Shown here in pieces: positions 3,909 through 11,150 of a stretch of DNA of 64,000 nucleotides. The position numbers were made by a program, and so were the translations under genes. Where the stretch lies: the NCBI GenBank assembly GCA_017543285.1, contig JAFYGK010000012.1, positions 1 through 64,000 on the forward strand. Direction: 5' to 3'. The notes beneath the pieces were generated by a model. It was not told where the DNA came from and made no database searches. It saw only the letters and a list, made by a program, of their open reading frames with translations. The first letter of the stretch is position 1. Each line of letters opens with the position of its first letter. Source of the DNA: Clostridia bacterium. GTDB taxonomy: Bacteria; Bacillota; Clostridia; Oscillospirales; Acutalibacteraceae.

Positions 3909-5693
3909 CTATTCTTCGGCAGTCGGGCTTGTTTCCGGCGGAGTTTCAGAGGAAGGTTCGGGCTGCTGCGATGACGGAGGCTGCTGCGACGATGACGACG
4001 GCTGCTGAGAGGAGGAAACCGGCTTTTCATATGTGCTGACTGTCAGCGTAACATGTGTGCCGTATTCATATTCTCTGCCAGCGGTCAGATCCGAACCAAT
4101 GACCTCGCCGTAATTGCCCTGCGCGGCGTCTTCCTCGATAACAACGACAAAGCCGAGCTGCGACAGGGTCGCTGCCGCCTGATAGGCCTTTTTGCCGACC
4201 ACCTTGGGCATCTCTCTCATCCTGGGTCCGAGCGAGACCTTGATATGCACCGTTTCGCCCTCCTCGATGAGAGTGCCCGGCGAGGGAGTCGTCTCAACGA
4301 CCCTGCCCTCGTCAAAGGTATCGCTGAAAACATATCCGTCAAATACAAACCGCATGTATGCCCATTGCATATTGTCGGTCAGGTCGCTGTAATTGACGCC
4401 CATAATATCATACGGAACGGCAAAATTGAATTCGGGGGCGCTTTCGGATGAGGACTCCGGCTCGCTTGACAATTCCGACGACATTTCAATGGAGACCGGC
4501 TCGACCGACGACGGATTTTCTCTTGAGCGCCCGCCGAGGACGACTGCAAGCACAGCTATTGCGATGAGCAGCAGCAGACCGAGAACCCCGCAGGCTATAT
4601 ACAGACCGATATTGCTTTTTCTTCCGACCGGCGATTCATCGTAGTAGTCCTGTTCCTCCTCGACCATTCTTCTGCGCGCCGATTCTCTGTCCAATTGGGC
4701 CTGTTCCTTTTCATATTCCTTGACGACGCCGTTCACCGCCGTAGAGGAAGTAAGCTCCTGCTTGAACACATCCACCGAGTTTGTTCTCATTTCGGGGTGT
4801 ACCTTTAAAGCTTTGTTGAGCGCCGAGAGAACGTTCGGAGGAAGCTGGGAGCTGACCTCAAGCGGGAAATTTAAGGTCTCGTTGTTCATGCGCTGCAAAA
4901 CGTCCGGCAGGACGGTTCCCGTCAGCGCGGTATATATAGTCGAAGCAAGGCCGTATACGTCGGTATGATGTCCGAGCCTTCCGTCCGAGCGGTATTGTTC
5001 AAGCGCGGAATAACCGTCGAATATCTGCGGATTGAGGTATGTTCCCGAGCTGTTGGCGGCCTCAATGGAAAAGTTGGTCAGGCGGAGCTTGCCAGAAGCG
5101 TCGAGTATGAGATTGTCGGGATTTACCGCATAGTGGTTTATCCCGGCGGCGTGAAGCGCGGCGAGTCCGTTGATCACCGGTACGAACAGAGTGCGCACCT
5201 GCTTCCATTCGAGCGGTCTGGAATGGCGCTCGAGAGCCTCGGAGAGGGTGCAGCCGTCGACAAGCTCGCCGACACAGTAGACGGTGCCGTTTGTCTCAAA
5301 TATATCGTAAATGGGAACAAGCATGGGAATATCGCGCAGCTTTGCGAGCATTCTTGCCATGCCGATAAAATCCTTGTAGTATTCGTAAAAGGCTGTTTCG
5401 CATCCGTTGATTATTCTCAGGCTGTTGTCGCCGGTATTTCTTGCGGAAATATTTACGGGGAAAAACTCTCTGATCTGCACGGGAGCGTTCATCTTGTTGT
5501 CCCAGCCGGAATAAGAGGCGCCGTCGCCGTTCGCGAGCAGCAGGCAGCCGACGGTATATCTTTCCTGGATACCGGTGCCTACAGGCAAAAAAGGCTCGGG
5601 ATTCTGCTGCGGGGTATATCCGCAGTGGGGGCACTGGGAAAAGCCTTCGTCAGGCTTCATGCATCTCGCGCATAAATTGTTAGGTATAGACAT
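3909..5693 (-). CDS. Ser/Thr kinase-like pseudokinase with N-terminal zinc ribbon, one TM helix and two extracellular PASTA domains
   Basis: N-terminal CxxC...CxxC. The kinase fold is recognisable but the catalytic residues are replaced (VAIK becomes VQIR, HRDLKPxN becomes HYAVNPDN, DFG becomes NFS). A TM helix (LYIACGVLGLLLLIAIAVLAVVL) follows, then two PASTA-like repeats and a Q/P/S-rich tail. Confidence 0.65.
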   Translation of the reverse strand: MSIPNNLCARCMKPDEGFSQCPHCGYTPQQNPEPFLPVGTGIQERYTVGCLLLANGDGASYSGWDNKMNAPVQIREFFPVNISARNTGDNSLRIINGCETAFYEYYKDFIGMARMLAKLRDIPMLVPIYDIFETNGTVYCVGELVDGCTLSEALERHSRPLEWKQVRTLFVPVINGLAALHAAGINHYAVNPDNLILDASGKLRLTNFSIEAANSSGTYLNPQIFDGYSALEQYRSDGRLGHHTDVYGLASTIYTALTGTVLPDVLQRMNNETLNFPLEVSSQLPPNVLSALNKALKVHPEMRTNSVDVFKQELTSSTAVNGVVKEYEKEQAQLDRESARRRMVEEEQDYYDESPVGRKSNIGLYIACGVLGLLLLIAIAVLAVVLGGRSRENPSSVEPVSIEMSSELSSEPESSSESAPEFNFAVPYDIMGVNYSDLTDNMQWAYMRFVFDGYVFSDTFDEGRVVETTPSPGTLIEEGETVHIKVSLGPRMREMPKVVGKKAYQAAATLSQLGFVVVIEEDAAQGNYGEVIGSDLTAGREYEYGTHVTLTVSTYEKPVSSSQQPSSSSQQPPSSQQPEPSSETPPETSPTAEE

Positions 5694-5964
5694 TTATATC
5701 TGCCTCCGTTTAGCTTTCGGATCGGATTTATACTTATCTGCCGCAGAGAAAAAAGCGGGCGGCAAATCTGCATTTTTACATAAATACCCACGATATAATA
5801 ATCCTTTATATATTTTAACAGACTTTCAGTCAAAAAGCAATACATATTTACCGACGGGTAAATCAATGCGGTATACGTCCGATTGACAACCGGCATTTTG
5901 CGTGATAAAATCAAATCGGGTCGTTTTTCGACCCGGACATTTTTACCGAAAGGAAGCTCGCCGC

Positions 5965-6609
5965 GTGAAAAAACTGCTTTGTGTTCTGCTTGCCGCCGCC
6001 GTTGCGCTGTCGCTTCTTTGCTGCGGCAGATACGATAATTCATCCGACCAGAATATTTATGTGCCCGACCAGGGAACTTCAAACGAATTAAAGCTCATCG
6101 AGGATTCATCCGCGCCCGACCGGTCGGAAAAACCGTCCTCCCCGAGCGGCAGGGCGGAAAAAGGCAGCAGCCAAAGCCCGCAGAAAAGTGAAGGCGGCAG
6201 CCCGGATTCCGAACCGCAGAGCAGCAATGCCTCGTCCGAACCGCAGGGCGGCAGGAAGACGCTCGATAAAAACGGAACATATACAAGCCGCGACGATGTA
6301 GCGCTGTATATCCGCCTTTACAACACTCTTCCCGAAAACTTTATCACCAAAAGGGAGGCCGAAGCGCTCGGCTGGACCGGCGGCAGTCTCGAGCCTTATG
6401 CCCCGGGAAAATGTATAGGAGGCGGACGCTTCGGCAACTATGAGGGAGCGCTGCCCGATAAAAAAGGGCGCAAATACTGGGAGTGCGACATTGACACGCT
6501 GGGCAGGAAAAGCCGCGGAGCAAAGCGCATAGTTTATTCCAATGACGGGCTTATCTATTATACCGGAGACCATTACAAAACCTTTACGCTGCTGTACGGG
6601 GAGGAATAG
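5965..6609 (+). CDS. Secreted barnase-family guanyl-specific ribonuclease, lipoprotein with S/P-rich linker
   Basis: The C-terminal ~110 aa align with barnase (LPENFITKREAEALGW; APGKCIGGGRFGNYEGALP; RIVYSNDGLIYYTGDHYKTF). The catalytic Glu, Arg and His are conserved. GTG start 8 nt after RBS aaaggaag, followed by a lipobox (ALSLLCCG). Confidence 0.75.
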   Translation: MKKLLCVLLAAAVALSLLCCGRYDNSSDQNIYVPDQGTSNELKLIEDSSAPDRSEKPSSPSGRAEKGSSQSPQKSEGGSPDSEPQSSNASSEPQGGRKTLDKNGTYTSRDDVALYIRLYNTLPENFITKREAEALGWTGGSLEPYAPGKCIGGGRFGNYEGALPDKKGRKYWECDIDTLGRKSRGAKRIVYSNDGLIYYTGDHYKTFTLLYGEE

Positions 6610-6612
6610 AAA

Positions 6613-6891
6613 ATGAAAAAGGTTGTGCTCGACGGAGCCGTTCTGACAAATATGGAGGATGTTCATGAGTTTCTCGCACGCGAATTGTTTTTTCCCGAGT
6701 GGTACGGCAAAAATCTCGACGCCCTTCATGACTGCCTGACCGACATACATGAGGACGTCAGGATTGTTTTCATAAAGAAAAAGCAAATGAAGCAGAGGCT
6801 GGGCGGATATTATCCCAGGCTGGTCAGGGTTTTCAGGGACAGCAGCGAGGAAAACCCGCATATAAAATTCAGCCGCAGAAACGAAATGTGA
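6613..6891 (+). CDS. Barstar-family ribonuclease inhibitor
   Basis: 92 aa ORF 3 nt downstream of the RNase gene. It matches barstar over the binding helix (FPEWYGKNLDALHDCLTD), including the equivalents of Asp35 and Asp39. Confidence 0.8.
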   Translation: MKKVVLDGAVLTNMEDVHEFLARELFFPEWYGKNLDALHDCLTDIHEDVRIVFIKKKQMKQRLGGYYPRLVRVFRDSSEENPHIKFSRRNEM

Positions 6892-7505
6892 GAAGCGCCA
6901 TGGATACAGAAGTAAAAAGCAGCGAAAAAAAGCCGCTTAAAATTGCGGCTGTCGTTATAATGCTTGCCCTTGCCCTTGCCCTCGCGCTTTTTATCAGCAC
7001 GCCCGAGATGAGGCTCAAGCTCTACCGCGGGACGAGGATAACCGGCGTATCGGATATAAGGATAAACGGAGTGAAGTATTCTCCGGTTGAAAAGTATTCG
7101 GCTTTCGGCAACGGGCAGACCGAGGAAGAGAAACAGCCGCTCGTCCTAAAAAAGAACGTGTTCAGGCTGGAAGGCGGCAGACAGGGCGAATATGCCATTG
7201 AGTATTTCTTTGACAATGCGGAGATAGCCCGGCTGACGGGCGACGACAGCTTTAATGATTTTCCGCAGTATACTCCGGTGCGGTTTGTTTATTACAGCGA
7301 CAACTGGTGGAATGTCGTCAAGCTGTCTCTGGACGCCGATCTGAACGGCGAAGACGGAAACTGGTGGATCACGCTGAAAGCCAAATGCCGGAGCCAGGAG
7401 AGCGACGGAGCCAGGAGCTTTTCAAAGCAGGCAAACTATATTTCCGCGGCGGAAAACGGCGAGGGGATAACCCTTTTGTGCGGCGGGCAGCAAACGGAAC
7501 AATAA
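6888..7505 (+). CDS. Hypothetical membrane-anchored protein, translationally coupled to barstar
   Basis: The start overlaps the barstar stop. There is an N-terminal TM helix (IAAVVIMLALALALALFI). No known domain. An alternative start is the ATG at 6900. Confidence 0.45.
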   Translation: MRSAMDTEVKSSEKKPLKIAAVVIMLALALALALFISTPEMRLKLYRGTRITGVSDIRINGVKYSPVEKYSAFGNGQTEEEKQPLVLKKNVFRLEGGRQGEYAIEYFFDNAEIARLTGDDSFNDFPQYTPVRFVYYSDNWWNVVKLSLDADLNGEDGNWWITLKAKCRSQESDGARSFSKQANYISAAENGEGITLLCGGQQTEQ

Positions 7506-7540
7506 CCGATTTATCCAAGCAAAGGCAAAAAACCATACAA

Positions 7541-7574
7541 AAAGGCGACTGAAGCATTTTCAGCCGCCTTTAAA
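7541..7574 (+). terminator. Rho-independent terminator after the barnase-barstar operon
   Basis: A ggcgactgaa/ttcagccgcc stem with one mismatch, followed by TTTAAATT. Confidence 0.4.
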
Positions 7575-7742
7575 TTATATTGCAGGACTTCCTGCGCAAA
7601 ACCGCTGTCAGAGAAGCCGACCGGAGGAATAATAATCCTGCTGCTGCAATTCGAAGCCCGTGAGCTTTATAGGGCTTTCGATCCTCTTTGCGTTTTCGGC
7701 CGGGCGTTCCCGTTTGCAGGGGTTTTGAACGCCGGCATGGTT

Positions 7743-10013: not shown

Positions 10014-11150
10014 TCAGCTTCTCGGTGTTCCGCAGCTCTGGCAGAACTTTGTGTTGTTCACGGCGCCGCAGCTCGGACAGGTCCACGGACCGTCCTGCTG
10101 GACGGGAGAGGTAAACTGCTGCTGACCGGGAGTCTGCTGATACTGCTGCTGAAACCCCTGAGGCTGATTGAATCCGCCGCCCTGATTGAAGCCCTGTTGG
10201 GGATAGCCCTGGTTAAAGCCCTGCTGCTGACCGGGGGCTTGCTGATACTGCTGCTGAAACCCCTGAGGCTGATTGAATCCGCCGCCCTGATTGAAGCCCT
10301 GTTGGGGATAGCCCTGGTTAAAGCCCTGCTGCTGACCGGGGGCTTGCTGATACTGCTGCTGGAAGCCCTGCTGAGGGTAGCCCTGATTCATGTTCACAGG
10401 CTGGCCGTAATTTTGCTGGAAGCCCTGTTGGGGATAGCCCTGATTCATGTTTACAGGCTGAGAGAAGCCCATTGCGCCCTGCTGAAAGCCGGGCTGATTA
10501 AAACCGGGCTGCTGAAAGCCGGGCTGATAGCCGAAGCTCTGTTGTACGCCGCAGGCGCCGGGCATAAGAGCGGCCCTGATGGTCTCGCCCTGTCTTTGCA
10601 GTTCTGAATAGAGAAAGTCGTACTGGCTCTTCGGACGGTTGGAAAAGCTGCTCAGCTCAAACTTTATTTCATTGAACCACGGCGAATTTACATAGATCAC
10701 CGTTTCAAACTCGTAGCTGTATTCATAACGTCTGGGATTGAAGCTGGTATTTTTGCCGTCGGGAGATTTGTAGAATATCTCGGTTTTATGTTCCTCTATC
10801 CTGGTCTCGCATCCTGTGACCTGAGAAATATCAATGATATCGGGGTTCTTTTTGCGCCAGTCGGATGAGGAAGACACGATGAATTTCCCCTGCTGCTGGT
10901 CGATATAAACCTTCGTAGAATTGCCGAGGGTCATGGTCGGATGAAAAGAATTAAGGTTTTGCTCGTTTTGTTCTCTGTAGGCCAGCTGCTGTTTAATCTC
11001 CTCAAGCGTAGACCTTTTTCTGTCGCTGAAAAAAGGCGACAGCTTGCCTGCACAGTTTTTGCAGATATTGCCGTCCTCCAGCTTGCGGTTGCCGAGAAGT
11101 CCGATTTTTTCTCCGCATATATCGCAGAATTTTTTCTCAAATAAAGCCAT
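10014..11150 (-). CDS. DUF4428-like zinc-ribbon protein with Q/G/F/N-rich prion-like repeat domain and C-terminal zinc ribbon
   Basis: N-terminal CDICGEK...CKNC, a ~150 aa Q/N/G/F/Y low-complexity region made of tandem repeats, and a C-terminal WTCPSCGAVNNTKFCQSCG. Confidence 0.6.
   Translation of the reverse strand: MALFEKKFCDICGEKIGLLGNRKLEDGNICKNCAGKLSPFFSDRKRSTLEEIKQQLAYREQNEQNLNSFHPTMTLGNSTKVYIDQQQGKFIVSSSSDWRKKNPDIIDISQVTGCETRIEEHKTEIFYKSPDGKNTSFNPRRYEYSYEFETVIYVNSPWFNEIKFELSSFSNRPKSQYDFLYSELQRQGETIRAALMPGACGVQQSFGYQPGFQQPGFNQPGFQQGAMGFSQPVNMNQGYPQQGFQQNYGQPVNMNQGYPQQGFQQQYQQAPGQQQGFNQGYPQQGFNQGGGFNQPQGFQQQYQQAPGQQQGFNQGYPQQGFNQGGGFNQPQGFQQQYQQTPGQQQFTSPVQQDGPWTCPSCGAVNNTKFCQSCGTPRS
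10145..10470. repeat. In-frame tandem repeats (102 nt x2 plus partial, and a further ~42 nt x2) encoding the Q/G/F/N-rich domain
   Basis: The 34 aa unit QQYQQAPGQQQGFNQGYPQQGFNQGGGFNQPQGF occurs twice exactly at the nucleotide level. QPVNMNQGYPQQGFQQ also occurs twice. Confidence 0.6.

What the first reader, a model, noticed from the sequence alone, without database searches (positions are those of the whole stretch)
5965..7505. Lipoprotein-anchored barnase homologue with its barstar immunity gene and a third, coupled membrane protein
The ORF at 5965-6609 ends in a domain that aligns nearly residue for residue with barnase, and the catalytic Glu, Arg and His are intact. It is preceded by a lipobox and a ~100 aa S/P-rich tether, so the active RNase would be displayed on the cell surface. 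Three nucleotides downstream is a barstar homologue with the Asp35/Asp39 binding-helix residues conserved. A third ORF overlaps the barstar stop and encodes an N-terminally anchored membrane protein of unknown function. That makes a three-gene toxin-immunity-accessory module, and a tethered extracellular RNase is not the canonical free barnase.
Basis: partly seen in the sequence, partly recalled or inferred. Interest (0 to 1): 0.6.

Follow-up and report, generated by a model that had tools for sequence, protein, structure and literature searches.

The report
Ordinary membrane-tethered barnase–barstar gene pair
This is a real secreted RNase (barnase) gene with its inhibitor (barstar) gene, of a membrane-tethered type found in very many gut Clostridia, and the third gene is a co-transcribed neighbour that is not linked to such pairs anywhere else, so the finding is ordinary.

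Summary
ORF 5965-6609 ends in a barnase domain (Pfam PF00545, E 1e-20; PDB barnase, E 1e-26; 55% identity), and Lys27, Glu73, Arg83, Arg87 and His102 are all kept. ORF 6613-6891 is a barstar (PF01337, E 4e-20) with Asp35 and Asp39 kept. A third ORF follows (6900-7505, or 6888 if the GTG start is used). One promoter-like site and one terminator-like hairpin bracket all three genes.

- The layout [quoted passage not shown] is not unusual. At least 8000 homologues exist. Of the 120 best, 104 have an A, G or S before the Cys at about position 20. Of 80 species-level genome loci, 64 have barstar immediately downstream.
- This copy's own lipobox is atypical (L-L-C-C, with Cys at -1), so lipidation is inferred from its relatives and is not shown.
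- The third gene belongs to a small uncharacterised family of membrane-anchored beta-sandwich proteins. It is absent from all 80 related barnase loci. The eight other family members I looked up have no barnase or barstar nearby. There is no conserved three-gene module.

The most likely function is a surface-retained RNase that scavenges extracellular RNA, with cytoplasmic barstar as self-protection. It is a new member of a known kind and of low interest.

The parts
5883..5911 (+). Sigma-70-type promoter-like site: TTGACA, 17 nt, TAAAAT, with TG before the -10 hexamer
   Evidence: 11 of 12 consensus positions. It lies in the divergent intergenic region between the kinase gene (- strand, starts 5693) and ORF1. 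This is a consensus match only.
5916..5936 (+). G+C-rich hairpin (8 pairs) at about the predicted 5' end of the transcript, followed by a T-rich run
   Evidence: One search lists it as terminator-like on both strands. Its role (5' stabiliser or attenuator) was not tested.
5965..6024 (+). Export signal of ORF1 (residues 1-20: VKKLLCVLLAAAVALSLLCC). Cys20 aligns with the lipobox Cys of homologues, but position -1 is Cys.
   Evidence: C20 is conserved in at least 90% of alignment A1; residue at -1 in homologues: A 60, G 36, S 8; the single Cys is this protein. RBS AAGGAAG at 5950-5956.
6025..6273 (+). Low-complexity Ser/Pro/Gly/acidic linker (residues 21-103)
   Evidence: 19 Ser, 8 Pro and 8 Gly of 80 residues counted (21-100). 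Homologues have a linker of similar length and unrelated sequence.
6274..6609 (+). Barnase-type RNase domain (residues 104-214) and stop codon
   Evidence: PF00545 E 9.6e-21, barnase PDB E about 1e-26, 55% identity. K129, E173, R184, R188 and H203 are conserved.
6613..6891 (+). Barstar homologue, 92 aa, with no signal peptide. GGAGG at 6600-6604.
   Evidence: PF01337 E 4.4e-20, PDB barstar E 2.2e-12. Asp35 and Asp39 are kept, Trp38 is His and Tyr29 is Trp.
6900..7505 (+). ORF3, 201 aa (205 aa if GTG 6888 is the start). It has an N-terminal transmembrane helix (residues 11-32) and a beta-sandwich ectodomain, and belongs to a small uncharacterised family.
7541..7571 (+). Terminator-like hairpin after ORF3, followed by UUUAAAUUAUAUU
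   Evidence: MFE -24.4 kcal/mol for 7500-7600, z -3.6, and no shuffle folds as well. It was not picked up by the stricter T-run rule.

Best explanation
A two-gene barnase-barstar cassette of the type common in gut and rumen Clostridia, with an unrelated membrane-protein gene sharing its transcript.

Proposed mechanism
- ORF1 is exported unfolded through Sec.
- By analogy with its relatives, it is lipid-modified at Cys20 and held at the outer face of the membrane.
- The roughly 83-residue disordered linker lets the RNase domain reach through the cell wall.
- There it cleaves extracellular RNA, most plausibly to scavenge nucleotides and phosphate.
- Barstar stays in the cytoplasm and neutralises any barnase that folds before export.
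- ORF3 is a separate membrane-anchored beta-sandwich protein. It happens to sit downstream in this species and has no conserved functional tie to the pair.

Shown: the homology, the conserved catalytic and binding residues, the gene order, the commonness of the architecture, and the lack of conserved linkage of ORF3.
Inferred: export, lipidation, surface retention, the scavenging role and co-transcription.
For: - Family matches and residues.
- Commonness: at least 8000 homologues. Among the 120 best, 104 have A, G or S before a Cys at about position 20, followed by a variable linker and a conserved domain ending in LLYGEE.
- Among 80 species-level genome loci, 64 have barstar directly downstream and at least 56 have a canonical lipobox.
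- ORF3 independence: 0 of 80 loci carry an ORF3-family gene. None of 8 other family members has barnase or barstar nearby. Downstream neighbours fall into no recurrent family.
- Operon boundaries.
- GC and GC3 of the three genes match their neighbours, so there is no sign of recent acquisition.
- Bacillus barnase-type RNases are secreted and barstar is intracellular; binase and balifase are induced by phosphate starvation (PMC5021464).
- Simple barnase-barstar pairs are described as widely distributed (PMC3482391).
Against: - This copy's lipobox has Cys at -1. That is unique among the 107 homologues scored, so signal peptidase II processing is uncertain. The protein could instead be cut by signal peptidase I and released, or stay anchored by an uncleaved signal.
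- No experiment or expression data support the scavenging role.
- ORF3 starts 8 nt after, or overlapping, the barstar stop with no terminator between them. It would sit on the same face of the membrane as the RNase, so a species-specific functional link cannot be excluded.
Confidence: 0.72

Rival explanations
1. It is an interbacterial toxin-immunity pair. The surface-displayed barnase kills neighbouring cells and barstar protects kin.
For: The toxin-then-immunity gene order is that of polymorphic toxin systems. Barnase domains with barstar immunity do occur in such systems (PMC3482391).
Against: There is no trafficking, repeat or translocation domain, only a signal peptide and a low-complexity linker. 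An RNase tethered to the producer has no evident route into a target cytoplasm. No alternative toxin or immunity cassettes lie nearby. The domain is highly conserved rather than polymorphic.
Confidence: 0.1
2. It is a true three-gene module. ORF3 is an accessory factor for the tethered RNase in this lineage, for example holding, positioning or regulating it at the membrane surface, or capturing RNA.
For: ORF3 is tightly packed against barstar with no terminator between them. It is predicted to face the same side of the membrane as the RNase. The three-gene arrangement is the same on all six metagenome contigs fetched for this species; the barstar and ORF3 DNA is identical on all six, and the whole operon on the three contigs that contain it exactly.
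Confidence: 0.08
3. The RNase is freely secreted in this species. The degenerate lipobox (Cys at -1) is not recognised, so the protein is released like Bacillus barnase and the linker acts as a propeptide.
For: The -1 Cys is unique among the homologues scored. Bacillus barnase has a signal peptide plus a propeptide (PMC5021464).
Against: The Cys aligns exactly with the lipobox Cys that is conserved in at least 90% of relatives. Cys is a small residue, and I recall, without testing it here, that small residues other than A, G and S are occasionally tolerated at -1. No evident A-x-A signal peptidase I site follows the hydrophobic region.
Confidence: 0.15

Closest known systems
Barnase and barstar of Bacillus amyloliquefaciens (PDB 1a2p, 1brs, 1a19)
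   Same: The RNase domain is 55% identical, with the catalytic Glu and His and the Lys and Arg residues conserved. The inhibitor is homologous, with the Asp35/Asp39 helix. The enzyme is exported and the inhibitor is cytoplasmic.
   Different: Here the export signal is of the lipoprotein kind at family level, and it is followed by an ~83-residue low-complexity linker instead of a short propeptide. Barnase Arg59 is Tyr (the motif FGNYEG is invariant in alignment A1). A Cys pair (C150, C174) replaces barnase Ser50 and Ala74.
Balifase-YrdF operon of Bacillus licheniformis
   Same: The RNase gene and its barstar-type inhibitor gene lie in one operon (PMC5021464).
   Different: Balifase is a freely secreted enzyme with a signal peptide and a propeptide. 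That paper calls the operon arrangement unique among the bacilli it compared, whereas it is the rule (64 of 80 loci) in the clostridial clade.
Tox-Barnase and Imm-Barstar modules of polymorphic toxin systems (Zhang et al. 2012, PMC3482391)
   Same: The same toxin and immunity domains in the same gene order.
   Different: No N-terminal trafficking or repeat domains and no cassette arrays. It corresponds to the 'simple barnase-barstar gene pairs' that the paper sets apart from full polymorphic toxins.
Transthyretin-like / prealbumin-like beta-sandwich domains (for ORF3)

Membership tests
Barnase-type microbial RNase (Pfam PF00545, N1/T1 superfamily) | Significant profile match above the curated cut-off | tested here: met
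   74.6 bits against a cut-off of 24, E 9.6e-21. PDB barnase E about 1e-26.
Barnase-type microbial RNase (Pfam PF00545, N1/T1 superfamily) | Catalytic Glu73 and His102 plus Lys27, Arg83 and Arg87 | tested here: met
   mapping: K129, E173, R184, R188, H203. All are invariant in alignment A1.
Barnase-type microbial RNase (Pfam PF00545, N1/T1 superfamily) | Guanyl-preferring endoribonuclease activity | not testable with these tools
   Needs an enzyme assay.
Barstar (Pfam PF01337) | Significant profile match above the curated cut-off | tested here: met
   71.9 bits against a cut-off of 23.4. PDB barstar E 2.2e-12.
Barstar (Pfam PF01337) | Asp35 and Asp39 on the barnase-binding helix | tested here: met
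   alignment: NLDALHDCLT against NLDALWDCLT.
Barstar (Pfam PF01337) | Binds and inhibits the cognate RNase | not testable with these tools
   No complex prediction tool is available. Adjacency to the RNase gene is met.
Bacterial lipoprotein (signal peptidase II substrate) | Positively charged n-region and hydrophobic h-region | tested here: met
   VKK, then LLCVLLAAAVALSLL.
Bacterial lipoprotein (signal peptidase II substrate) | Canonical lipobox [LVI][ASTVI][GAS]C | tested here: not met
   The sequence is L-L-C-C, and the alternative S-L-L-C has Leu at -1. Relatives have A (60), G (36) or S (8) at -1. Cys20 aligns with their lipobox Cys. Lipidation of this copy is therefore inferred, not established.
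Polymorphic toxin system | N-terminal trafficking or repeat domains, and variable C-terminal toxin cassettes with matching immunity genes | tested here: not met
   The only domains are the signal, the linker and barnase. No extra cassettes lie in the flanks.
Proposed three-gene barnase-barstar-ORF3 module | Co-occurrence of ORF3 homologues with barnase-barstar pairs in other genomes | tested here: not met
   0 of 80 barnase loci have an ORF3-family gene. None of 8 ORF3-family members has barnase or barstar nearby.

The most novel reading that the evidence does not exclude
In this rumen Clostridia species, ORF3 (a membrane-anchored beta-sandwich protein of an uncharacterised family) has been recruited as a partner of the surface-tethered RNase. 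It might dock the enzyme or present RNA to it. That would make a lineage-specific three-component surface RNA-degrading unit.
Probability: 0.07. Interest if true: 0.4.

Novelty: new member of a known kind. Interest (0 to 1): 0.14.

Why it matters
It matters little for this locus. It is one more copy of a very widespread barnase-barstar cassette.

The one modestly useful point is at family level. In the sample examined, most barnase homologues of gut and rumen Clostridia carry a lipoprotein-type signal and a long disordered spacer, rather than being freely secreted like the textbook Bacillus enzyme. In five full-text searches of the held library I found no paper describing this. If these enzymes are truly surface-retained, they would be an abundant, unstudied route of extracellular RNA turnover in gut communities.

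The public NCBI call for this gene (170 aa, P0004) starts after the signal peptide, so that annotation hides the export signal.

Tried and rejected
- The word-indexed homologue search with ORF3 returned only itself, which suggested an orphan gene. The exhaustive phmmer search showed a small real family, so the orphan reading was rejected.
- The profile search with the ORF3 alignment added few members.
- Pfam, NCBIfam, PADLOC and PHROGs gave nothing for ORF3. The weak TgpA_N hit (E 0.18) only covers the transmembrane helix.
- The Foldseek search against afdb50 could not be run because the library was unavailable.
- I looked for any recurrent third gene, homologous or not, downstream of barstar in 64 loci. 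I found only pairs shared by closely related genomes.
- I looked for compositional signs of horizontal transfer and found none.
- Literature searches for lipoprotein-type barnases found no specific description.
- A defence-system role was considered and dropped. PADLOC gave no meaningful hit.

Full report
**What is in the sequence**

Three same-strand ORFs occupy 5965-7505.

ORF1 starts at GTG 5965, preceded by AAGGAAG at 5950-5956, and ends at stop 6607-6609 (214 aa).
- Residues 119-209 match Pfam Ribonuclease PF00545 at 74.6 bits against a cut-off of 24, E 9.6e-21.
- The protein matches dozens of PDB barnase and binase chains at E 3e-27 to 1e-23.
- Over the printed alignment it is 55% identical to barnase (55 of 100 positions) with two small indels.
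- Barnase Lys27, Glu73, Arg83, Arg87, His102 and Tyr103 map to K129, E173, R184, R188, H203 and Y204. Barnase Arg59 is Tyr.

ORF2 runs 6613-6891 (92 aa) and begins three nucleotides after the ORF1 stop. GGAGG at 6600-6604 lies inside the end of ORF1.
- It matches Pfam Barstar PF01337 at 71.9 bits, E 4.4e-20, and PDB barstar at E 2e-12.
- Asp35 and Asp39 are conserved. Trp38 is His and Tyr29 is Trp.
- It has no signal peptide.

ORF3 can start at GTG 6888, which overlaps the barstar ATG-TGA, or at ATG 6900, which is 8 nt after the stop. Public gene calls use ATG 6900, giving 201 aa (P0001).

Its own refutation criteria (no HMM hit, or substituted catalytic residues) are not met.

**Transcription unit**

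- A strong sigma-70-like site (TTGACA, 17 nt, TAAAAT, with an upstream TG; 11 of 12 positions) lies at 5883-5911, in the divergent intergenic region.
- A stable hairpin at 7541-7571, followed by a U-rich stretch, lies after ORF3. For 7500-7600 the MFE is -24.4 kcal/mol with z -3.6.
- No terminator-like site on the + strand separates the three genes.
- Co-transcription is therefore likely but inferred.
- GC and GC3 of the three genes (GC3 0.61-0.64) match the neighbouring genes.

**The export signal**

The N-terminus is VKKLLCVLLAAAVALSLLCCGRYD.
- In an alignment with 33 homologues, Cys20 falls in a column that is Cys in at least 90% of sequences. That column is the lipobox Cys of the relatives (LAAC, LTAC, IVGC, LSGC and similar).
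- In this protein the -1 residue is Cys, not Ala, Gly or Ser.
- Among the 107 of the 120 best hits in which a Cys follows an uncharged hydrophobic run, the -1 residue is A (60), G (36), S (8), and C, P and L once each. The single Cys is this protein.
- The canonical lipobox test is therefore not met for this copy. Lipidation is an inference from homology.
- Residues 21-103 form a linker rich in Ser, Pro, Gly and acidic residues. Of residues 21-100, 74% are S/P/G/E/D/Q/K.
- Homologues have linkers of similar length but unrelated sequence.

**How common the architecture is**

- The homologue search hit its ceiling of 8000 scored proteins, all with E below 1e-3.
- Most of the best hits are about 195-240 aa and share the same layout: MKK-type signal, lipobox, variable linker, and a conserved RNase domain ending in LLYGEE.
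- A scan of species-representative genomes returned at least 581 confirmed loci. The best 80 were kept. They come from Oscillospiraceae, Lachnospiraceae, Ruminococcus, Butyrivibrio, Christensenellaceae and others, including cultured isolates.
- In those 80 loci, 64 have a barstar ORF directly downstream. At least two of the remaining 16 are cut off at the contig end.
- At least 56 show a canonical lipobox by a simple pattern.
- The 'tethered barnase plus barstar' pair is thus the standard form in gut and rumen Clostridia, not an exception.
- Zhang et al. [quoted passage not shown]
- My literature searches found no paper that describes the lipoprotein-type form.

**The third gene**

- ORF3 has no match in Pfam, NCBIfam, PADLOC or PHROGs.
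- The word-indexed search found only itself.
- The exhaustive search found 31 cluster representatives. One is a fragment of ORF3 itself; the best other has E 3e-25 and 40% identity. Most are 178-197 aa with the same layout.
- The alignment shows conserved motifs R-L-Y-x-G-D-R-I-T-G, F-S-I-K-G-G-x-Y-G-x-Y and N-x-N-W-W-x-I-T.
- AlphaFold2 on that alignment gives a confident model (mean pLDDT 92.1, pTM 0.83), with a transmembrane helix at residues 11-32 and a beta-sandwich ectodomain.
- ORF3 is therefore a real gene for a membrane-anchored, transthyretin-like beta-sandwich protein of unknown function.

**Is it part of a module?**

I tested linkage in both directions.
- An HMM of the ORF3 family finds no member within 5 kb of barnase in any of the 80 loci from other species. 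It finds only the six contigs of this same species.
- Eight other family members (P0123, P0124, P0125, P0126, P0147, P0149, P0156 and their contigs) lie next to unrelated genes. These include a P-type ATPase and a histidine kinase, a pseudouridine synthase and Tex, riboflavin genes, and CtsR-McsB-ClpC.
- Barnase and barstar HMMs find nothing on any of those contigs.
- The genes following barstar in the 64 loci fall into no recurrent family.
- The three-gene module is therefore not conserved. ORF3 is best read as a neighbour that shares the transcript in this species.

**Mechanism**

The RNase precursor would be exported by Sec. By analogy with its relatives it would be acylated at Cys20 and cleaved by signal peptidase II. 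The disordered linker would space the folded RNase domain away from the membrane and through the wall. Barstar in the cytoplasm would neutralise any enzyme that folds before export, which is the established role of barstar in Bacillus.

The likely benefit is degradation of extracellular RNA close to the cell for nucleotide and phosphate uptake. Binase and balifase in Bacillus are induced by phosphate starvation (PMC5021464).

All steps after homology are inferred. An antagonistic (toxin) role is less likely, because there is no delivery domain and the domain is conserved rather than polymorphic.

**Source**

The same DNA is found on six fetched contigs from ruminant gastrointestinal metagenomes. 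NCBI names the ORF3 product a hypothetical protein (IKS19_01385) of a 'Clostridia bacterium' MAG.

**Verdict**

This is a new member of a known, very common kind, and interest is low.

Noticed in passing
window 5965-6090; protein P0004: The NCBI record calls this RNase as a 170-aa protein starting at 'MEDSSAPD'. That start is inside the linker and omits the signal peptide. ENA and Logan gene calls give the 214-aa form from GTG 5965, which aligns with the MKK-type N-termini of homologues.
   Followed up: partly
window 5916-5936: A G+C-rich 8-bp hairpin followed by a T-run sits immediately after the -10 box, at about the predicted transcript 5' end of the barnase operon. It is terminator-like on both strands, yet no gene ends there. 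It could be a 5' stabilising stem-loop or an attenuator.
   Followed up: no
window 6412-6414 and 6484-6486 (Cys150, Cys174 of ORF1): The clostridial clade has two conserved cysteines (GKCIGG and ECDID; C174 is invariant in alignment A1) where barnase has Ser50 and Ala74. This may be a disulfide across two neighbouring strands. Barnase Arg59 is also an invariant Tyr (FGNYEG) in this clade.
   Followed up: no
proteins P0005, P0018, P0022, P0063: Some homologues of about 256-310 aa carry two barnase domains in tandem behind one signal peptide.
   Followed up: no
L026:5349-6482, L044:5517-6437, L066:5388-6446, L076:5477-6610: In four species the barstar reading frame continues without a stop into a second domain. 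The second domain differs each time: DUF169, DUF1349, a SAM methyltransferase, or a DegT-type aminotransferase fragment. These are either barstar fusion proteins or assembly or frame artefacts.
   Followed up: partly
window 10014-11150 (- strand): A 378-aa protein with an N-terminal zinc-ribbon-like region (DUF4428), a long Gln/Gly/Phe/Asn-rich tandem-repeat region (GFNQGYPQQGFNQGGGFNQPQGFQQQYQQ...) and a C-terminal Cys-rich motif.
   Followed up: no
window 3909-5693 (- strand): A Ser/Thr protein kinase with a PASTA domain and a Ser/Pro/Gln-rich C-terminal tail is transcribed divergently from the barnase operon.
   Followed up: no
L089:2647-6201 and L091:1897-5412: In two other species the ORF3-family gene sits between a pseudouridine synthase gene (S4 plus PseudoU_synth_2) and a Tex-like gene. 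This is the only context seen more than once for this family.
   Followed up: no
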